From an uncultured Planctomycetia bacterium (GTDB taxonomy: Bacteria > Omnitrophota > Gorgyraeia > Duberdicusellales > 4484-171), in assembly GCA_964536865.1 (NCBI GenBank), contig CAZHYN010000001.1, positions 161,824 through 225,823 on the forward strand: a DNA stretch of 64,000 nt, written 5' to 3'. Position numbers and translations under genes: made by a program. The notes under the pieces are model-generated. The model saw only the letters and a program-made list of their open reading frames with translations. It was not told the origin of the DNA and did no database searches. Positions 45,406-55,769 of this stretch are shown piece after piece; the first letter of the stretch is position 1; each line of letters opens with the position of its first letter.

Positions 45406-46731
45406 ATGGATAGGAAGTTATCGTTAAAAGGGGTAAACCTAAAACGACGTATCGCTATAGCAGTTATTTTAATTACTGTTATTCCCTCTCTGGTGTTTGT
45501 ATGTTATATCTATAACTACTACATCTCTAGAGCCGTTCTTCTTATTCTGGGGTTGATTGTATTTCTGGGATGGATGATAGCGTTGGAAGTTTTGTTTTCA
45601 ATCTTGAGAATTCATTCCGAGTCTCAATTAGCTTTAAAGGAATTGGGAGAAGAAAGATTGGCTAAGGATTTAGCAGTTAGAGATGAAGTAGAAGGTTTAG
45701 AGGCTGTATTTAAGCTCATTTCCTCAAAAGTTAAAAGTAGCTTAGAAGAACTTAAAGATCTAAGTAGCAGAATTGAAACATTAAATAAAGAGCTAGCAAA
45801 AAAGATAAATATTCTCTCCACGATTACCCAGATACACTCCTTTATCTCACGAGGAGAACATAGACAGGCGTTCGGTGTTGTTTTAGAGAGATTAAGAGAA
45901 GCTCTAAAGTTAAGTAAAGCAAATCTCTTATTTACAAAGGAGGAAAAACAAGGTTGGGATCTAGAGTACTTTTTTGAGTATGATGAGAGCTTAGAGATTT
46001 TTAAGAAAAAATACAAGGATTTCTTTACTGCTAAAAGTCTCCTTCTTTTAGATGAAGAGCATCGTCAAGAAAGTATTCTATTCTTAAGAGAGAGCTTAGG
46101 ATTGAGGAACCTTTTTGTTTTCCCCCTTCAGTTTAAGGGAGAAGTTGTAGGTGTTCTTGTAGGAGGAAATAACCTTTATGGATTTTCTTTCTCCTCTGAA
46201 GATATAGAATTGATAGAAACACTCTCTAAAAGTATGGTTCTAATATGGGAACATCGGAGGCTTTATAGGATAGTTGAAGATCTGGAGATTTACGATCCTT
46301 TAACAGGCCTTTACAATAAAAAGTACCTTCAAATAAGACTGGATGAAGAAATTAGAAGAGCCACTACCTACCAAAGACCTTGCGGACTGCTTCTTGTAAA
46401 GATAACTAACTACAGAGAAATCCAAGGTAATTTTGGAGTGTTAGAAGGAGAGAGGATATTAAAGAAGATAGGAGAAGTACTTAAGGAGAGTTTAAGACCC
46501 ATAGATATTCCTACACGGGTAGAGGAAGATACTTTAGGTGCTATCCTCATAGAGAGAAATAAGAGACAATCTCAGTATACAGGAATGAATATCATAGAAA
46601 GGTTAAACAGTTATTTCAAAGAAGATAAGTTGAAACCTAAATTTTCATTCTCTGTAGCAGAGAATCCTGTAGATGGAGATGGGGCCCAGAAGCTTATTAG
46701 TTATGCTTTTAGTCACTTAGAAGATAGATGA
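45406..46731 (+). CDS. Membrane-anchored coiled-coil–GAF–degenerate GGDEF domain protein (probable c-di-GMP receptor, not an active cyclase)
   Basis: 2 TM helices; GAF-like region; GGDEF-domain start YDPLTGLYNKKYL; signature is RVEEDTL in place of R-x-GG(D/E)EF; an RxxD (RPID) is retained upstream. Confidence 0.7.
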   Translation: MDRKLSLKGVNLKRRIAIAVILITVIPSLVFVCYIYNYYISRAVLLILGLIVFLGWMIALEVLFSILRIHSESQLALKELGEERLAKDLAVRDEVEGLEAVFKLISSKVKSSLEELKDLSSRIETLNKELAKKINILSTITQIHSFISRGEHRQAFGVVLERLREALKLSKANLLFTKEEKQGWDLEYFFEYDESLEIFKKKYKDFFTAKSLLLLDEEHRQESILFLRESLGLRNLFVFPLQFKGEVVGVLVGGNNLYGFSFSSEDIELIETLSKSMVLIWEHRRLYRIVEDLEIYDPLTGLYNKKYLQIRLDEEIRRATTYQRPCGLLLVKITNYREIQGNFGVLEGERILKKIGEVLKESLRPIDIPTRVEEDTLGAILIERNKRQSQYTGMNIIERLNSYFKEDKLKPKFSFSVAENPVDGDGAQKLISYAFSHLEDR

Positions 46732-47171
46732 GGATAGGTAAGAAGATAAACAAACTCTTAGGAGAAATTCTTGTAGAGAAGAGAATTATTACTAAAGAAC
46801 AGCTTAACGAGGCTTTAAAAGTTCAGGCTCAAGATGGAGGTTTGATTGGAGAGATAATTGTAAAGTTAGGTTTTGCTAGTGAAGAAGAGATTGCCCAATG
46901 TTTGTCTTATCAGTATGGCTTTGCCTACTTACCTTTAGATAGTTATGAGATTTCTCAAGAAGTAATAAGACTCGTTCCTAAGAATATTGTCTCTCATTAT
47001 TGTCTTATTCCATTAGATAGAATAGGAGATACACTTACAGTAGTAATGGCAAATCCCTTAAACTTGGAGGCAATAGAAGATATAGAAGACCTTACTCATC
47101 TAGAGGTGCAAGCTTTTATAAGTACTCCCACAGACATAAGAAATGCTATAAAGAAATACTATGGAGAGTGA
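46728..47171 (+). CDS. Stand-alone MshEN / T2SSE_N domain protein (predicted c-di-GMP binding)
   Basis: Two tandem 24-aa motifs matching the MshEN consensus RLGxxLLxxGxIxxxQLxxALxxQ: KLLGEILVEKRIITKEQLNEALKVQ and LIGEIIVKLGFASEEEIAQCLSYQ; translationally coupled on both sides. Confidence 0.7.
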   Translation: MRIGKKINKLLGEILVEKRIITKEQLNEALKVQAQDGGLIGEIIVKLGFASEEEIAQCLSYQYGFAYLPLDSYEISQEVIRLVPKNIVSHYCLIPLDRIGDTLTVVMANPLNLEAIEDIEDLTHLEVQAFISTPTDIRNAIKKYYGE

Positions 47172-51798: not shown

Positions 51799-52239
51799 AT
51801 GAAGGATAATTTTACTCTGGTAGAAGTTATGATTGTGGTAGGGATTTTGGTACTTTTAACTGTTCTAGTAGTTCCTAATATTTTAAGAGCCCGCATTACT
51901 GCTAACGAAGTAGGAGCAATTACTTCCTTAAAAACTGTCTTTTCCTCTGCTCAAATTTATAAAAATATCAACTCTGTCTACCCTTCCTCTTTAGGAGATT
52001 TAGGAGATGCTAATCCCCCTTATATTGAGGAAGAGTTAAGCTGTAATGACCAACCTTGTCCCAAACAAGGGTACAATTTCACTCTTACTGGCTCGGAGTA
52101 CTCTTTCTATGCGGTAGCCTCTCCTCAGATTTTTGGCTTCACCGGGATAAGAAGTTTCTACATAGACGAAAATGGCCTAGTTAAGTACTGTGATACCGCT
52201 GATTGTGATCCTTCCCAGGGGATAATCCTTCAAGAGTAG
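51799..52239 (+). CDS. Type IV (pseudo)pilin with a class III signal peptide
   Basis: MKDNFTLVEVMIVVGILVLL: G|FTLVE cleavage and N-methylation motif with Glu5; C-terminal Cys pair. Confidence 0.8.
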   Translation: MKDNFTLVEVMIVVGILVLLTVLVVPNILRARITANEVGAITSLKTVFSSAQIYKNINSVYPSSLGDLGDANPPYIEEELSCNDQPCPKQGYNFTLTGSEYSFYAVASPQIFGFTGIRSFYIDENGLVKYCDTADCDPSQGIILQE

Positions 52240-52256
52240 AGGAGAATTTCTAGCCA

Positions 52257-52285
52257 TTGAAAAATACCTCCAGGTATGCTATATT
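52257..52285 (+). promoter_or_regulatory. sigma70-like promoter (TTGAAA -17- TATATT) immediately after the first pilin gene, driving the structured RNA
   Basis: TTGAAA at 52257-52262, 17-nt spacer, TATATT at 52280-52285. Confidence 0.4.
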
Positions 52286-52291
52286 TTAGGT

Positions 52292-52552
52292 AGACAATCT
52301 TGGGAACGAGAAAGGCAAACTCAGGGTAACCTGGGGACCCGCGAAAGCGGCTATTTACCTAACTGGGTAAATAGGCAAAGCCGTGCGTCCCGCTCTTTCT
52401 AAAACCCAGATTAACAGGGGTTTGAAGTTAAAGTGCATAAGGGATGCAGAGGCAGGTAAACTGCAGGATTTAACTAGAAATATGAAAAGGGCGGGATAGG
52501 CAGGTTGCCGAATTCCTAAAAATACCCAGGTAGGTTATTACCTGGGTTTTTT
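52292..52552 (+). ncRNA. Candidate structured RNA with GEMM-I (c-di-GMP-I riboswitch)-like core motifs, ending in an intrinsic terminator
   Basis: GC-rich island in AT-rich DNA; AGGCAAAC–[TCAGG-GTAA-CCTGG GNRA hairpin]–GGGAC...GCGAAAGCGG (GAAA hairpin)...9-bp hairpin CTATTTACC/GGTAAATAG...GGCAAAGCC; this resembles the GGCAAAC–P2(GNRA)–GGGAC–GCAAAGC core of GEMM-I as I recall the consensus; bounded by the promoter at 52257 and the terminator at 52524-52552. Confidence 0.4.
52524..52552 (+). terminator. Rho-independent terminator (8–9-bp stem CCCAGGTA/TACCTGGG followed by T6)
   Basis: Stem 52525-52532 / 52539-52546, loop GGTTAT, then TTTTTT. Confidence 0.6.
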
Positions 52553-52573
52553 AATAGAGAGGGGGGGTAAATA

Positions 52574-52601
52574 TTGACATTTCTTCAGATTGTGGTATAG
52601 T
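52574..52601 (+). promoter_or_regulatory. sigma70-like promoter (TTGACA -16- TATAGT) upstream of the second pilin
   Basis: TTGACA at 52574-52579 and TATAGT at 52596-52601; RBS AAGGGGGTGAGG before the ATG at 52637. Confidence 0.4.
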
Positions 52602-52636
52602 TAAAAATGGTTTATCAAGAAGAAAGGGGGTGAGGA

Positions 52637-53032
52637 ATGAGGAAAGGTTTTACTTTGGTAGAAATTATGATTGTTGTAGCAATCATCGCCCTTTTGGCAG
52701 CTATTGCTATTCCTAACCTGCTAAGAGCTCGTATCACCGCTAATGAAAGTGCTGCTCAGGCAAACTTAAGAACTATCTCTACTGCTTTAGAAAATTATGC
52801 AGCTGCTAACAACGGAAGTTATGCCACTGACGAGAGTCAACTTACCGATGCTACTCCTCCTTACTTGAATCAATCCTTCTGTGGCAATACTATTCAAGGG
52901 TATACTTACTCTTGTACCCTTGCTGCTACTGGATACACAGTAACCGCTACTCCTGCATCCTGTGGGACGAGTGGAACAAAGACTTATACTATAACAACTG
53001 GTGGTGTTTTATCTTCAGCGGATTGCTCTTAA
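52637..53032 (+). CDS. pilA: Type IV major pilin (PilA-like), a paralog of the 51799 gene
   Basis: MRKGFTLVEIMIVVAIIALLAAIAIPNLLRARITANE class III signal; C-terminal disulfide-loop cysteines; followed by a strong terminator. Confidence 0.85.
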   Translation: MRKGFTLVEIMIVVAIIALLAAIAIPNLLRARITANESAAQANLRTISTALENYAAANNGSYATDESQLTDATPPYLNQSFCGNTIQGYTYSCTLAATGYTVTATPASCGTSGTKTYTITTGGVLSSADCS

Positions 53033-53453: not shown

Positions 53454-53967
53454 ACTAAAGGGGGTTACTCTAGTGGAAGTTCTCATCGTTACGGCAGTTA
53501 TGTCAACAATTTTTGCTAGTTTATTTTATGTGCTTACACAGGGGTACCTCTCTAATGAAATTGGGTTAGCAAAGCTAAAACTTCAAGAGGAAGCAAGGAG
53601 GGCGATAGAGGTTATAGGAAAGGATGTTCGTCAGACTACGGTAAGTGAAATCAAAAGTAATAATCCTTCCAGCTCTCACCTTAAGTTTCGTATTTATCAA
53701 GATTACTCTGGAGGTAATCCTCAATGGAGTAGTAACTATATCGAGTATACTTATGATGCCAATTCTTATAAACTTCAACGTACCGATTATAACTCAAATA
53801 TTACCACCTACTTTTATAACATAGCTAGCCCCCCTTTTGATGTTGAAGAGTTAATTAACAATAACGAAAATAAAATAAGTATCGATTTAAATATGCAAGA
53901 GACAGTGAAAGGTTCTTTACCGATAAATTTTTCTTTAACAGGAGAGGTGACCATACGCAATGAGTAA
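53389..53967 (+). CDS. Minor pilin-like protein; start uncertain (either a long 25-aa leader from the ATG at 53389 or a non-canonical start near 53440)
   Basis: ...PKLKG|VTLVEVLIVTAVMSTIFASL prepilin motif with Gly -1 and Glu +5; no ATG/GTG/TTG lies between the upstream stop and the motif; the ORF from the ATG at 53389 overlaps the previous gene by 65 nt. Confidence 0.45.
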   Translation: MSTGQREVRRELSHSRHIFLPKLKGVTLVEVLIVTAVMSTIFASLFYVLTQGYLSNEIGLAKLKLQEEARRAIEVIGKDVRQTTVSEIKSNNPSSSHLKFRIYQDYSGGNPQWSSNYIEYTYDANSYKLQRTDYNSNITTYFYNIASPPFDVEELINNNENKISIDLNMQETVKGSLPINFSLTGEVTIRNE

Positions 53968-54862
53968 AAAGGGAGTAGCTCTTCTTTTAGCCCTTTTGAT
54001 TCTAGCAGTTCTAGGTATTCTAGGAAGTTCACTTTTTATAAGTAGTTTAACAGAGAGCAACCTAACGAAGAGAGATATAAGAGGGAAAAGAGCCTTTTGG
54101 GCAGCGGAGTCAGGAATTTCTAAAGGGATAGAAAAGTTAAAAGAATGTGTACAAAGTGGTGATTGCCAGGTAAGCGGGACTATAGATTATGAAAATGAGA
54201 GTTATTCCTATTCTGCTACTATTTCCGTATTAGATAGCCTAAATTATCGTATAGATTCCTCAGGTTCTTTAGGTCAGATAACTAAGAATATTTCTGCAGT
54301 TGTAAGGTTGAGAGATATCGATGCTAATAATTTTCCTTATGCTATAGAAACTGAGGGTCTTTTGGAGATCGGAGGAAATGCTCAGATAACTCCTTCTGAT
54401 AGCACCAAAGAGCAATCATCTTTAGATTTTAATAGTCTGTTTACTTTTACTAAGGAAGAATTAAAGTCTTACGCTGATTACACCTATACGGATCCTCCCA
54501 ATAATATCACTCCTTGTGAGGGCATCACTTGGGTAGATGTATCTCCTGAGGATGAGTTTAGAATAACTTCAGATAGTTGGGAAGGTAGTGGTATTCTTGT
54601 GATTGAAGGCAATGTTAAAATAACTGGAGGGAGATTCCGAGGGATAATATATATTATTGGGGGGCAGTTAGAGGTACCTTTAGAGGTAGCAGCAGGTAAC
54701 CCCATCATAGAGGGAGCTATCCTAGTGGAATGCATACCCACTAGTACTACTCGCATAAGAGGAGATTTTACTTTGAATTATGATCTCGATGCTATCAACG
54801 AAGCTTTGGATAATTTAAGATTTATTGCTCCTCGAATAGTAGCGTGGTGGGAAGGTAGTTAA
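53960..54862 (+). CDS. PilX-like minor pilin / pilus assembly protein (PilX_N-type N-terminus)
   Basis: MSKKGVALLLALLILAVLGILGSSLF resembles the PilX N-terminal domain (RGxALxxALxxLxxLxxLG); large variable C-terminal domain. Confidence 0.55.
   Translation: MSKKGVALLLALLILAVLGILGSSLFISSLTESNLTKRDIRGKRAFWAAESGISKGIEKLKECVQSGDCQVSGTIDYENESYSYSATISVLDSLNYRIDSSGSLGQITKNISAVVRLRDIDANNFPYAIETEGLLEIGGNAQITPSDSTKEQSSLDFNSLFTFTKEELKSYADYTYTDPPNNITPCEGITWVDVSPEDEFRITSDSWEGSGILVIEGNVKITGGRFRGIIYIIGGQLEVPLEVAAGNPIIEGAILVECIPTSTTRIRGDFTLNYDLDAINEALDNLRFIAPRIVAWWEGS
54088..54348. repeat. 261-bp segment 100% identical to 55010-55270 (copy 1, inside the first PilX-like gene)
   Basis: Read base by base; identity begins at AAGAGCC... 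and ends at ...GCTATAGA; the flanks diverge. Confidence 0.9.
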
Positions 54863-54884: not shown

Positions 54885-55769
54885 ATGAGAAAAGCCATCG
54901 CCTTAATTTTTAGCCTTTTAGTAATGGCAGTTCTATTTATAATTGGGCAGTCCTTTTTCACTCAGACCTTAAATGGAAGTAACTTAGTGAAAAGATATGT
55001 AACCTCCTTAAGAGCCTTTTGGGCAGCGGAGTCAGGAATTTCTAAAGGGATAGAAAAGTTAAAAGAATGTGTACAAAGTGGTGATTGCCAGGTAAGCGGG
55101 ACTATAGATTATGAAAATGAGAGTTATTCCTATTCTGCTACTATTTCCGTATTAGATAGCCTAAATTATCGTATAGATTCCTCAGGTTCTTTAGGTCAGA
55201 TAACTAAGAATATTTCTGCAGTTGTAAGGTTGAGAGATATCGATGCTAATAATTTTCCTTATGCTATAGAGAGTCAGGGAGCGATTGAGGTAAAGGGAAG
55301 TGCTCAGATAACTCCTTCTGATAGTAAAAAGGAGAATAGCGATTTAGATTTTAAAAGTTTATTTGGTTTTACTAAGGATGAACTAAAGAGTTATGCTACC
55401 TACTATTACCAGGATCCTCCCAATAATGTGGAGCCGGTTGAGGATATAACTTGGGTGGAGCTCTCTGAAGGAAAAGAACTTAGGATTACTTCTAACAATT
55501 GGGAAGGTAGTGGCATTCTGATAATTAATGGGGATGCTAAAATAACAGGTGGGGAGTTTGAAGGAATAATTTATGTGATTGGAGAGTTGGAAGTGCCTGC
55601 AGGCAATCCTACGGTAGAGGGGACCATTTTGGTAGAAGGAGACCCTTCAGAGACTACAAGTTTGAGAGGTAATTTTGAGTTAGACTACGATACAGAGGCA
55701 ATAGATGAAGCCTTGAATAACTTAAGATATGTGGCTCCTCAAACTGTAGCTTGGTGGCAAACTTATTAG
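54885..55769 (+). CDS. PilX-like protein, tandem paralog
   Basis: MRKAIALIFSLLVMAVLFIIGQSF; the C-terminal half is about 60% identical to the upstream paralog, and an internal 87-aa block is 100% identical. Confidence 0.55.
   Translation: MRKAIALIFSLLVMAVLFIIGQSFFTQTLNGSNLVKRYVTSLRAFWAAESGISKGIEKLKECVQSGDCQVSGTIDYENESYSYSATISVLDSLNYRIDSSGSLGQITKNISAVVRLRDIDANNFPYAIESQGAIEVKGSAQITPSDSKKENSDLDFKSLFGFTKDELKSYATYYYQDPPNNVEPVEDITWVELSEGKELRITSNNWEGSGILIINGDAKITGGEFEGIIYVIGELEVPAGNPTVEGTILVEGDPSETTSLRGNFELDYDTEAIDEALNNLRYVAPQTVAWWQTY
55010..55270. repeat. 261-bp segment 100% identical to 54088-54348 (copy 2, inside the second PilX-like gene)
   Basis: As above. Confidence 0.9.

What the first reader, a model, noticed from the sequence alone, without database searches (positions are those of the whole stretch)
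52257..52636. Promoter- and terminator-bounded GC-rich structured RNA between two pilin paralogs, with a GEMM-I (c-di-GMP-I riboswitch)-like core
The 400-nt gap between the two pilin genes is not empty. It contains a TTGAAA-17-TATATT promoter at 52257-52285. Downstream is a roughly 230-nt stretch that is far more GC-rich than the surrounding genome. It ends in a textbook intrinsic terminator at 52524-52552. Inside, three stable hairpins can be folded by hand: TCAGG-GTAA-CCTGG (a GNRA tetraloop), CCGC-GAAA-GCGG (a GNRA tetraloop), and the 9-bp CTATTTACC/GGTAAATAG stem. The first hairpin is flanked by AGGCAAAC on the 5' side and GGGAC on the 3' side, followed by GCGAAAGC. This is the same order as the GGCAAAC–P2(GNRA)–GGGAC–GCAAAGC core of GEMM-I aptamers such as Vibrio Vc2, as I recall it. 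A second GGCAAAGCC follows the third hairpin. The genomic context fits a c-di-GMP-responsive element. It lies inside a type IV pilus locus that also encodes a degenerate GGDEF receptor, a standalone MshEN domain and a PilB with an MshEN N-terminus, with a PilZ protein elsewhere in the window. It sits directly 5' of a major pilin gene, which is the classic position of GEMM riboswitches. Two possibilities remain. It could be a terminator-type riboswitch for the downstream pilin, in which case the second promoter at 52574 may be spurious or constitutive. Alternatively it could be an independent small RNA. If it is neither, it would be a novel structured RNA class.
Basis: partly seen in the sequence, partly recalled or inferred. 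Interest (0 to 1): 0.75.

Follow-up and report, generated by a model that had tools for sequence, protein, structure and literature searches.

The report
Insertion-laden c-di-GMP riboswitch before pilin gene
The gap between the two pilin genes holds a c-di-GMP class I (GEMM-I) riboswitch with its own promoter and terminator: a well-known kind of RNA sensor that the standard database search missed here because two extra pieces of RNA are inserted into it.

Summary
Window 52302-52516 is a c-di-GMP-I (GEMM-I) aptamer. Promoter 1 lies at 52257-52285 and an intrinsic terminator at 52524-52552. A second near-consensus promoter (52574-52601) sits just before the pilin gene (ATG 52637).

Rfam misses the window at its gathering score. 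The best match is RF03167 at 26.4 bits. The reason is two insertions:
- a 36-nt two-hairpin insertion (52339-52374) between GGGAC and the true J2/3 GCAAAGCC;
- an 87-nt extension of the tip of P3 (52399-52485).

Relatives show the homology:
- A compact relative (L002, Omnitrophota) scores 66 bits.
- Near-identical relatives that lack only the P3 extension (L081, L139) pass RF01051.
- A model built from 62 metagenomic relatives, without the window, hits the window once (48 bits, E about 8e-14).

P1 and P2 covary strongly. G20, A47, C92 and the C44/G83 equivalents are all present.

The mechanism is inferred, not shown. c-di-GMP probably favours termination (an OFF switch), because aptamer segments, including inserted hairpin b, are complementary to the terminator's 5' half.

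This is a new member of a known class with an unusual but peripheral architecture. Interest is modest.

The parts
52257..52285 (+). Promoter 1 (TTGAAA-17-TATATT, TG-extended -10). The predicted transcription start is about 52292, roughly 10 nt before P1.
   Evidence: Found by the scan. The same promoter sits at the same distance in L002, L081-L083, L139, L104, L134 and L118, in different gene contexts. Promoter activity is inferred.
52302..52516 (+). Complete c-di-GMP-I (GEMM-I) aptamer, including its two insertions.
   Evidence: R2, a model built without the window, hits 52299-52520 at 48.4 bits, E = 7.7e-14, and this is the only hit in 64 kb. R1 gives 60.1 bits. Rfam gives only a sub-threshold RF03167 match of 26.4 bits over 52305-52363.
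52302..52308 (+). P1 5' strand (GGGAACG). It pairs with 52509-52516 (CGAAUUCC): C52307-G52510, G52308-C52509, and GGAA with UUCC, leaving AA 52511-52512 bulged.
   Evidence: Seen in the fold. P1 covaries across the family (helix 1: 3 of 3 pairs change on both sides). Window GGAA/UUCC corresponds to L002 GGAG/CUCC.
52309..52319 (+). J1/2 and the base of P2: AGAAAGGCAAA. G52314 is the G20 equivalent. G52315-C52376 and C52316-G52375 are the G21-C46 and C22-G45 pairs. A52317-A52319 are A23-A25.
   Evidence: Alignment to the Rfam consensus and to relatives. The list of conserved nucleotides is from PMC3764141.
52320..52338 (+). P2 hairpin CUCAGG-GUAA-CCUGGG (GNRA loop at 52326-52329), followed by G52336 A52337 C52338, the equivalents of G42 A43 C44.
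   Evidence: P2 covaries in 5 of 6 pairs across 56 distinct relatives.
52339..52374 (+). 36-nt insertion between C44 and G45. Hairpin a is CCGC-GAAA-GCGG (52339-52350). Hairpin b is CUAUUUACC-UAACUG-GGUAAAUAG (52351-52374). Within hairpin b, 52357-52369 (ACCUAACUGGGUA) matches the complement of the terminator's 5' half at 12 of 13 positions.
   Evidence: Absent from the compact relatives L002 and L089. Identical in L081-L083, L139 and L155. The duplex with 52523-52535 is -18.2 kcal/mol; 7 of 1000 shuffles reach that value.
52375..52379 (+). G45 and C46 equivalents plus J2/3. A52377, A52378 and A52379 are A47, A48 and A49.
   Evidence: GCAAAGCC aligns with the J2/3 of every relative.
52379..52398 (+). 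P3 5' strand (AGCC-G-UGC-GUCCCGCUCUUU). It pairs with 52486-52506.
   Evidence: Seen in the folds. There is a compensatory change relative to L081 and L155: window U52388-A52496 corresponds to C-G.
52399..52485 (+). 87-nt extension at the tip of P3, specific to this strain. It contains three small hairpins, including AAACCC/GGGUUU at 52402-52423. AAAACCCAG at 52401-52409 is complementary to CUGGGUUUU in the terminator's 3' half.
   Evidence: Absent from L081-L083, L139 and L155, whose pilins are 94-99% identical to the window's. It is not repeated elsewhere in the window or the fetched loci.
52486..52508 (+). P3 3' strand (AAAGGGCGGGAU-AG-GCAGGUU) and J3/1 (G52507, C52508). Bulged G52499 is the G83 equivalent. 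C52508 is the C92 equivalent.
   Evidence: The roles of these nucleotides are from PMC3764141 and PMC5888326.
52524..52552 (+). Intrinsic terminator: stem ACCCAGGUAG / UUACCUGGGU, loop GUUA, then a U-run (52548-52552).
   Evidence: The hairpin is -15.8 kcal/mol. It is conserved in L081-L083 and L155. A terminator in the same position occurs in most family members.
52574..52601 (+). Promoter 2 (TTGACA-16-TATAGT), between the terminator and the pilin gene.
   Evidence: It is conserved in L081-L083, L155 and L002. A TTGACA box also follows the terminator in L089, L112 and L147. Promoter activity is inferred.
52637..53032 (+). Downstream type IV pilin gene (131 aa, N_methyl motif), the presumed regulated gene. 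The ribosome-binding site GGGGGUGAGG lies just upstream.
51799..52239 (+). Upstream pilin-like paralogue (146 aa, pilin-type N-terminus, no Pfam hit). It ends 18 nt before promoter 1.
   Evidence: It is absent in L002, where the riboswitch directly follows pilC.

Best explanation
The element is a class I c-di-GMP riboswitch (GEMM-I) in a Candidatus Omnitrophota genome.

Layout: it is transcribed from its own promoter (start near 52292). The aptamer (52302-52516) has the canonical three-helix junction and the canonical ligand-contacting nucleotides: the G20, A47 and C92 equivalents are G52314, A52377 and C52508. It also carries two peripheral insertions: two hairpins between C44 and G45, and a long extension of the P3 tip. 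An intrinsic terminator (52524-52552) follows directly and serves as the expression platform.

Inferred mechanism:
- Without ligand, aptamer segments can pair with the terminator's 5' half while it is being transcribed. The main candidate is inserted hairpin b (52357-52369), together with G45/C46/A47 pairing with the C92 region. The P2 3' strand is a second candidate. This pairing lets the polymerase read through into the pilin gene.
- Bound c-di-GMP locks those segments into the aptamer. The terminator then forms and transcription stops. This is an OFF switch.
- The pilin gene also has its own promoter downstream of the terminator. The riboswitch would therefore modulate an additional, c-di-GMP-sensitive share of pilin transcription from promoter 1 and from the upstream pilBC operon, on top of a basal level.

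What is shown: homology, fold, covariation, conserved binding-site nucleotides, and the terminator.
What is inferred: ligand binding, cis action and the direction of the switch.
For: Identity:
- L002 (Omnitrophota, PilC 77% identical) has the same promoter-aptamer-terminator-promoter-pilin layout in compact form. It scores 66.2 bits (gathering score 59) in the c-di-GMP-I clan.
- L081 and L139, which are the window element minus the P3 extension, pass RF01051 at 35.5 and 37.7 bits (gathering score 35).
- R2, built from 62 metagenomic relatives without the window, gives one hit in the window at 52299-52520: 48.4 bits, E = 7.7e-14.

Fold:
- 95.6% of cells are paired against 82.5% in shuffles and 26-48% in slid controls. 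There are 183 double-sided changes against 64 in shuffles. P2 covaries in 5 of 6 pairs and P1 in 3 of 3.
- GAAA loops co-occur with an 11-nt-receptor-like P3 in 11 of 17 cases. Other GNRA loops do so in 0 of 29.
- All nucleotides that PMC3764141 lists as conserved or ligand-contacting are present (sequence).

Expression platform:
- The terminator lies 8 nt after P1.
- Hairpin b is complementary to the terminator's 5' half at 12 of 13 positions: -18.2 kcal/mol against -15.8 for the terminator hairpin, with 7 of 1000 shuffles as good.
- In the transcript that ends before the terminator's 3' half, this alternative fold (-82.1) is isoenergetic with the aptamer fold (-81.5), and it consumes the G45/C46/A47 and C92 equivalents.
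- At family level, the P2 loop plus 3' strand is complementary to the terminator's 5' half or linker (8-9 nt, p < 0.05) in 12 of 24 members, across three different P2 sequence classes.
- The aptamer core AGG(C/U)AAAC is complementary to the terminator loop and 3' half GUUU(G/A)CCU in about 13 members. The base change is compensated in L089 and L112.
- No member has P1 overlapping the terminator, which an ON design would need.

Cis action: in L122, L116, L152 and L153 the ribosome-binding site and start codon follow the terminator directly.

Precedent: class I riboswitches in C. difficile act as OFF switches through termination (PMC6200980).
Against: - The window itself does not reach any Rfam gathering score.
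- The insertion lies right after the C44 equivalent, which makes a tertiary pair with G83. Its effect on folding and ligand binding is unknown.
- In the full-length transcript, the conformer with the terminator is 8-12 kcal/mol more stable than the antiterminator conformer. Any switching must therefore be kinetic.
- The core-to-terminator complementarity seen in relatives is broken in the window: UUACCU instead of UUGCCU.
- The insertion and terminator sequences are identical in all close relatives, so this particular antiterminator has no covariation support.
- A strong, conserved promoter between the terminator and the pilin gene means the pilin does not depend on read-through.
- An OFF switch on a pilin sits oddly beside MshEN-type PilB ATPases, which suggest that c-di-GMP activates the pilus.
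- No transcript or binding data exist.
Confidence: 0.7

Rival explanations
1. Same riboswitch, opposite logic. c-di-GMP binding promotes read-through (an ON switch), which raises pilin transcription when c-di-GMP is high.
For: c-di-GMP up-regulates type IV pili in C. difficile through a riboswitch upstream of pilA1, although that one is class II (PMC6200980). The locus encodes MshEN-PilB ATPases and a stand-alone MshEN domain, which fits c-di-GMP-activated piliation. The thermodynamic default of the full transcript is the terminator, as in many ON designs.
Against: No part of P1 or of the ligand-stabilised core overlaps the terminator stem. P1 can be extended by only about 3 pairs towards it (sequence). 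All the conserved or covarying alternative pairings set aptamer strands against terminator strands, which predicts OFF.
Confidence: 0.15
2. A stand-alone RNA of about 260 nt that binds c-di-GMP, running from promoter to terminator. It would be a riboswitch-derived sRNA or a c-di-GMP sponge. The pilin would be transcribed independently from promoter 2.
For: The element has its own promoter and an efficient-looking terminator, followed by a separate promoter matching 11 of 12 consensus positions. All of these are conserved in L002, L081-L083 and L155. In the window's minimum-free-energy fold the aptamer and the terminator coexist with no competing structure.
Against: Other family members are classical 5' leaders, with the ribosome-binding site and start codon directly after the terminator. 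The element always lies just upstream of a gene and in the same orientation. No candidate target complementarity was looked for or found.
Confidence: 0.1
3. A decaying aptamer in this strain. The two insertions have disabled ligand sensing, leaving only a constitutive terminator or attenuator.
For: The window has one more insertion than any relative. It has also lost the core-to-terminator complementarity through a change that strengthens the terminator. It fails the Rfam thresholds.
Against: Every conserved junction nucleotide is intact. The P3 extension is closed by a 12-bp helix with a compensatory U-A for C-G change. The tip of P3 is a position that tolerates variable length across the family.
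Confidence: 0.08
4. A specificity variant that senses something other than c-di-GMP. The candidates are the 'GGC' variant class RF03167 and the c-AMP-GMP-sensing GEMM-Ib.
For: The best Rfam match for the window, and for several relatives, is RF03167 c-di-GMP-I-GGC.
Against: In the homology-based alignment the position-47 equivalent is A (GC-A-AAGCC) in the window and in all 62 relatives, not G. Position 20 is G, not the A of c-AMP-GMP aptamers. C92 is C. The apparent 'GCG' in the window alignment belongs to inserted hairpin a. Other relatives score best on RF01051.
Confidence: 0.04

Closest known systems
Vc2 (Vibrio cholerae tfoY leader), the structurally solved c-di-GMP-I/GEMM-I aptamer; Rfam RF01051
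   Same: It has the same three-helix junction and the same AAAGGCAAAC ... GGGAC ... GCAAAGCC ... UU(A/G)CCGA core. It has a G20/A47/C92-type pocket, a GNRA loop on P2, a bulged G in P3 opposite the C of GGAC, and a bulged A in P1.
   Different: The window RNA has 36 nt (two hairpins) inserted between the C44 and G45 equivalents, and an 87-nt extension at the tip of P3. It has a GUAA loop with a helical receptor rather than GAAA with an 11-nt-type receptor. Its expression platform is a terminator. It scores below the Rfam cut-off.
Class I c-di-GMP riboswitches of Clostridioides difficile (for example Cdi-1-3 upstream of flgB)
   Same: They are GEMM-I aptamers followed by an intrinsic terminator, and they yield truncated transcripts. 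They act as OFF switches (PMC6200980), which is the logic inferred here.
   Different: They occur in a different phylum and control different target genes (flagella, adhesins, ZmpI). No inserted hairpins or downstream second promoter were noted for them in the passages read.
Cdi-2-4, the class II c-di-GMP riboswitch upstream of pilA1 in C. difficile
   Same: It is a c-di-GMP riboswitch with a terminator platform directly upstream of the major type IV pilin gene.
   Different: It has an unrelated aptamer fold (class II) and is an ON switch. The window gives no class II match even at E <= 10.
Bc1 of Bacillus thuringiensis (c-di-GMP-I with a long, two-terminator expression platform)
   Same: It is a GEMM-I aptamer with a non-minimal expression platform and more than one layer of control (abstract).
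   Different: In Bc1 the extra elements are terminators downstream of the aptamer. In the window the extra RNA lies inside the aptamer and the extra downstream element is a promoter.
Rfam RF03167 c-di-GMP-I-GGC variant
   Same: It is the best-scoring Rfam model for the window (26.4 bits) and for L002 (66.2 bits). The shape of P3 is similar.
   Different: As I understand its name, the variant is defined by G at the A47 position. The window and all its relatives have A there.

Membership tests
c-di-GMP-I riboswitch (GEMM-I, RF01051, clan CL00126) | Covariance-model score at or above Rfam's gathering cut-off. This is an operational detection threshold, not a structural feature. | tested here: not met
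   The window has no clan hit at gathering score. Its best sub-threshold match is RF03167 at 26.4 bits against 59. The failure is explained by the 36-nt and 87-nt insertions. L081 and L139, which are the same element without the P3 extension, pass RF01051 at 35.5 and 37.7 bits against 35. L002 passes RF03167 at 66.2 bits.
c-di-GMP-I riboswitch (GEMM-I, RF01051, clan CL00126) | Three-helix junction (P1, P2, P3) supported by covariation | tested here: met
   Models R1 and R2 align the window end to end. On 56 distinct relatives, 95.6% of cells are paired against 82.5% in shuffles and 48% or less in slid controls. P1 covaries in 3 of 3 pairs and P2 in 5 of 6. The base of P3 is invariant because the search pattern fixed it.
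c-di-GMP-I riboswitch (GEMM-I, RF01051, clan CL00126) | Ligand-pocket nucleotides G20, A47 (plus A48 and A49) and C92 | tested here: met
   G52314, A52377-A52379 and C52508, mapped by alignment to L002 and the Rfam consensus. Their roles are described in PMC5888326 and PMC3764141.
c-di-GMP-I riboswitch (GEMM-I, RF01051, clan CL00126) | Tertiary organisers: a GNRA tetraloop on P2 with a receptor in P3, and the C44-G83 interhelical pair | tested here: met
   This was tested at sequence level only. The window has a GUAA loop at 52326-52329, a C-C/G-G helical segment in P3, C52338 and the bulged G52499. Loop and receptor co-vary across the family. The 36-nt insertion begins right after the C44 equivalent, and its steric effect is unknown.
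c-di-GMP-I riboswitch (GEMM-I, RF01051, clan CL00126) | Selective binding of c-di-GMP | not testable with these tools
   This needs in-line probing or ITC on RNA 52299-52520.
c-di-GMP-I-GGC variant (RF03167) | G at the A47-equivalent position (the G20/G47/C92 signature). This definition is from my own knowledge of the variant's naming. | tested here: not met
   The homologous J2/3 is GC-A-AAGCC (A52377). The 'GCG' that cmscan aligned belongs to inserted hairpin a. The score of 26.4 bits is below the gathering score of 59.
c-AMP-GMP riboswitch (GEMM-Ib) | A at position 20. This is from my own knowledge (Kellenberger 2015; Nelson 2015); those papers could not be read here. | tested here: not met
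   Position 20 is G52314 in the window, and G in all parsed relatives.
c-di-GMP-II riboswitch (RF01786) | Any match to the class II covariance model | tested here: not met
   No such match appears among all families at E <= 10 over 52200-52680.
Transcription-termination expression platform | An intrinsic terminator immediately 3' of the aptamer, plus an alternative pairing that excludes both the terminator and the ligand-bound aptamer | tested here: inconclusive
   The terminator is present. A candidate antiterminator pairs 52357-52377 with 52506-52535. It is isoenergetic with the aptamer fold in the nascent transcript and significant against shuffles (7 of 1000). It is 8-12 kcal/mol less stable than the terminator fold in the full transcript and has no covariation support within the clade.

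The most novel reading that the evidence does not exclude
The two-hairpin insertion between the C44 and G45 equivalents may be more than tolerated junk. It could define a recurrent structural subclass of GEMM-I in which the base of P2 becomes a multi-way junction.

The insertion occurs at the same site, with unrelated sequence, in the window clade and in the Flp-pilin-linked elements L098, L113 and L125. L105 and L118 carry a mirror version on the 5' side of P2.

In the window clade the insertion would carry the antiterminator itself. Part of the expression platform would then be embedded inside the aptamer. The promoter-to-terminator unit placed before an independently promoted pilin gene could additionally act as a free c-di-GMP-binding RNA.
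Probability: 0.2. Interest if true: 0.55.

Novelty: new member of a known kind. Interest (0 to 1): 0.33.

Why it matters
- The finding adds c-di-GMP riboswitch control of pilus genes (type IV, Flp/Tad) to the uncultured phylum Omnitrophota. I found no paper in the held library that links riboswitches to this phylum beyond passing mentions.
- It is a concrete case where a curated covariance-model threshold misses a true family member because of large insertions. This matters for riboswitch censuses in metagenomes.
- The natural series of compact, one-insertion and two-insertion versions of one aptamer would suit a test of how much peripheral RNA the GEMM-I fold tolerates next to its C44-G83 tertiary pair.
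- It does not change what is known about the riboswitch class itself.

Tried and rejected
- nhmmer and simple regular expressions over 80 pilC-linked loci found only L002.
- Models R1 and R2 found no element in 86 other Omnitrophota, Nitrospirota or Elusimicrobiota pil loci, or in pilin-homologue loci. The riboswitch is therefore sporadic and not a fixed part of the pil operon.
- I tested whether the 87-nt P3 extension or the 36-nt insertion is a repeat or mobile element. Neither has another copy in the window or in about 150 fetched loci.
- I considered the cmscan alignment that uses the first GCGAAAG as J2/3, which would make this a 'GGC' variant. I rejected it because compact relatives align the second GCAAAGCC.
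- I considered the R1/R2 alignment that pairs CUCAG with CUGGG at 52363-52367. I regard it as an artefact, since a model cannot represent a branched insertion. That alignment would also lose the conserved GGGAC.
- I looked for an ON-type overlap between P1 and the terminator and found none.
- The core-to-terminator complementarity (AGGCAAAC with GUUUGCCU) that is clear in relatives is not present in the window.
- The paper on Geobacter c-AMP-GMP riboswitches (PMC4418906) is not held.
- Not checked: the 'PilZ elsewhere' claim, and the RF01051 score of the window itself. The tool shows only the best family in a clan.
Full report
**1. Observation**

- Promoter-like site TTGAAA-17-TATATT at 52257-52285.
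- A terminator with a 10-pair stem at 52524-52547 plus a U-run.
- A second, stronger promoter-like site TTGACA-16-TATAGT at 52574-52601.
- The three hand-folded hairpins, which appear in the computed minimum-free-energy fold.

The stretch 52292-52523 is 46.6% GC in a window that averages 35.6%, which puts it in the top 0.5% of windows of that size. The 265-nt transcript folds 5.8 standard deviations better than dinucleotide shuffles.

The gene context is largely as stated. There is a GAF-GGDEF protein with EEDTL in place of GGDEF, a stand-alone MshEN domain, two MshEN-PilB ATPases, PilC, and an N_methyl pilin downstream. The PilZ claim was not checked.

**2. Database result for the window alone**

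At Rfam's gathering scores the only hit in the 64-kb window is a tRNA. A permissive search of 52200-52680 gives one notable match. It is RF03167 (c-di-GMP-I-GGC) at 26.4 bits against a cut-off of 59, with E = 4e-4 for that small search. It covers only 52305-52363, with the P3 half of the model collapsed. No class II match appears.

**3. Relatives settle the identity**

PilC places the window in Candidatus Omnitrophota. It is 99% identical to MAG B7_G16, whose contig ends before the intergenic region.

- **L002.** The next relative (CP070807.1, PilC 77% identical) has the same order directly after pilC: promoter TTGAAA-17-TATATT, structured RNA, terminator, promoter TTGACA-17-TATAGT, pilin. Its RNA is compact: AAAGGCAAAC-UCGUG-GUGA-CGCGA-GGAC-GCAAAGCC-AUGCACCC...GGGUAGGCAGGUUACCGAG. 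It scores 66.2 bits in the c-di-GMP-I clan, above the gathering score.
- **Near-identical relatives.** Contigs encoding pilins 94-99% identical to the window's (L081-L083, L139, L155) carry the window's RNA with the same 36 nt between GGGAC and GCAAAGCC but a short P3 tip. L081 and L139 pass RF01051 at 35.5 and 37.7 bits against a cut-off of 35.
- **Wider family.** One scan of metagenome contigs with a P3-base pattern returned 59 loci with 62 elements. In the 20 loci scanned against Rfam (17 from that scan plus L139, L089 and L081), every element detected passes the gathering score of a c-di-GMP-I clan model.
- **Independent model.** Model R2, built from those 62 sequences without the window, hits the window once at 52299-52520, with 48.4 bits and E = 7.7e-14.

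**4. Anatomy in window coordinates**

| Element | Coordinates and notes |
|---|---|
| P1 | 52302-52308 with 52509-52516 |
| J1/2 | ends in G52314 (G20 equivalent) |
| G21-C46 and C22-G45 equivalents | G52315-C52376 and C52316-G52375 |
| P2 | 52320-52325 with 52330-52335, loop GUAA |
| G42 A43 C44 equivalents | 52336-52338 |
| Insertion | 52339-52374 (hairpin a 52339-52350; hairpin b 52351-52374) |
| A47-A49 equivalents | 52377-52379 |
| P3 | 52379-52398 with 52486-52506; bulged G52483 and the bulged pair A52498 and G52499 (G83 equivalent) |
| Strain-specific P3 tip | 52399-52485 |
| J3/1 | G52507 and C52508 (C92 equivalent) |

Every nucleotide that PMC3764141 lists as highly conserved or ligand-contacting is present (PMC5888326). 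The 'second GGCAAAGCC' is the true J2/3.

**5. Fold support**

On the 56 distinct family sequences, 95.6% of cells pair. The figure is 82.5% in column shuffles and 26-48% when partners are slid. There are 183 double-sided changes against 64 expected. P2 covaries in 5 of 6 pairs and P1 in 3 of 3. The alignment was fitted to the model, and the base of P3 was fixed by the search pattern, so those pairs carry no information.

Between the window and its closest relatives, P3 shows a compensatory U-A to C-G change. GAAA loops go with a CCUAA...UAUGG-type receptor in P3 in 11 of 17 cases. GUAA, GAGA and GUGA loops never do (0 of 29), as expected for a real tetraloop-receptor contact.

**6. The insertions**

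- The 36-nt insertion is identical in all close relatives, so it offers no covariation.
- Its site recurs. L098, L113 and L125, which lie upstream of Flp pilins, have two unrelated hairpins at exactly the same place, between GGAC and GCAAAGCC. L105 and L118 have two hairpins on the other side of the P2 hairpin. Rfam still detects these at 40-45 bits.
- The 87-nt P3 extension is found only in the window. L155, whose pilin is 99% identical, lacks it.
- The extension is not a repeat. It is closed by a 12-bp helix, which argues for a real variant rather than an assembly chimera.
- Contigs of related strains often break in this region, which suggests strain heterogeneity there.

**7. Mechanism (inferred)**

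The terminator starts 8 nt after P1 and does not overlap it. An ON design, in which ligand-stabilised P1 prevents the terminator, is therefore not evident.

Instead, aptamer strands are complementary to terminator strands.
- **In the window.** ACCUAACUGGGUA (52357-52369, hairpin b) matches the complement of the terminator's 5' half (52523-52535) at 12 of 13 positions. The duplex is -18.2 kcal/mol against -15.8 for the terminator hairpin, and 7 of 1000 shuffles do as well.
- **Nascent transcript.** In the transcript that ends before the terminator's 3' half, the fold using this pairing (-82.1) equals the aptamer fold (-81.5). It also pairs the G45/C46/A47 equivalents with the C92 region, so it excludes ligand binding.
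- **P2 3' strand.** This strand can also pair with the terminator's 5' half, at -14.3 kcal/mol.
- **Across the family, P2.** The P2 loop plus 3' strand is complementary to the terminator's 5' half or linker in 12 of 24 members, across three unrelated P2 sequences.
- **Across the family, core.** The core AGG(C/U)AAAC is complementary to the terminator loop and 3' half, with a compensated C-to-U and G-to-A change in L089 and L112. For L002 and L089 the unconstrained minimum-free-energy fold is this long-range antiterminator.

All of this predicts that ligand binding frees the terminator, giving an OFF switch. Class I riboswitches of C. difficile were found to behave this way (PMC6200980).

Caveats:
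- In the full transcript the terminator fold is 8-12 kcal/mol more stable, so control would have to be kinetic.
- The window has lost the core-to-terminator complementarity.

**8. The second promoter**

Promoter 2 is conserved in L002, L081-L083 and L155. A TTGACA box also follows the terminator in other pilin-linked members: L089, L112 and L147. The pilin therefore probably has a riboswitch-independent basal promoter. The riboswitch would gate only the transcription that arrives from promoter 1 and from the upstream pilB-pilC-pilin operon.

A stand-alone RNA of about 260 nt remains possible. However, family members in which the ribosome-binding site and start codon follow the terminator directly (L122, L116, L152, L153) show that the family works as an ordinary cis leader.

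**9. Comparison and verdict**

The RNA works like, and by every sequence-level criterion is, a c-di-GMP-I (GEMM-I) riboswitch.
- It is not the 'GGC' variant, because the position-47 equivalent is A.
- It is not a c-AMP-GMP variant, because position 20 is G.
- It is not class II.

It fails only Rfam's score threshold, for a reason that is now understood. It is a new member of a known class in a little-studied phylum, with an unusual branched P2 base and a long P3 tip. Ligand binding, cis action and the direction of the switch remain untested. Interest is modest.

Noticed in passing
L102, L104, L108, L119, L131, L142, L110, L120, L105, L118 and others (downstream of the aptamer): Many relatives of this riboswitch precede a protein of about 377 aa that starts MPRLPRVYIEGA. 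It has an IS200-like Y1_Tnp domain (PF01797, E = 2.5e-12) followed by what looks like a transmembrane segment (not tested) and an uncharacterised C-terminal part. That is an odd target for c-di-GMP control. In these loci a conserved palindromic box, AAAGUGCCAG(A/G)CA(U/C)AA, lies between the terminator and the start codon.
   Followed up: partly
L113, L125, L127, L143, L149, L129, L095: These contigs carry two GEMM-I elements about 1.8 kb apart. In L113, L125 and L127 they lie upstream of Flp pilin (PF04964) or TadE-like (PF07811) genes. In L113 and L125 the second copy has the two-hairpin insertion at the GGAC/GCAAAGCC site.
   Followed up: partly
Alignment A3 (62 family members): GAAA loops on P2 co-occur with a CCUAA...UAUGG 11-nt-receptor-like P3 in 11 of 17 cases. 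GUAA, GAGA and GUGA loops always have a plain helical P3 (0 of 29). This is a clean loop-receptor co-variation.
   Followed up: yes
window 53960-54862 and 54885-55769: Two adjacent ORFs (300 and 294 aa), each with a hydrophobic N-terminal segment, share a long identical internal stretch (RAFWAAESGISKGIEKLKECVQSGDCQVSG...NNFPYAIE). This suggests a recent tandem duplication downstream of the pilin genes.
   Followed up: no
window 45406-47168: The GAF-GGDEF protein has EEDTL where the GGDEF motif should be, so it is probably not an active cyclase. It is followed by a stand-alone 147-aa MshEN-domain protein and then two complete MshEN-PilB paralogues.
   Followed up: partly
L001 (end), L154, L156, L157 (starts): Independent assemblies of close relatives break within or next to this intergenic region. 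L001 ends 87 nt after pilC. L154 starts inside the terminator, and L156 and L157 start just before it. This fits strain-level presence or absence of the insertions.
   Followed up: partly
L004, L006, L010, L014 and others (genome contigs record titles): These records encode PilC 61-69% identical to this Omnitrophota PilC, yet they are titled 'uncultured Planctomycetia' or 'Methanosarcinales archaeon'. The taxonomic labels or the binning are probably unreliable.
   Followed up: no
window 52401-52423 against 52521-52552: The first hairpin of the strain-specific P3 extension (AAAACCCAG-AUUAACA-GGGGUUU) resembles a degenerate copy of the terminator (AAUACCCAGG...CCUGGGUUUU). Its 5' arm is complementary to the terminator's 3' arm plus U-run over 9 nt. 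The extension may have arisen by duplication of the terminator (sequence).
   Followed up: no
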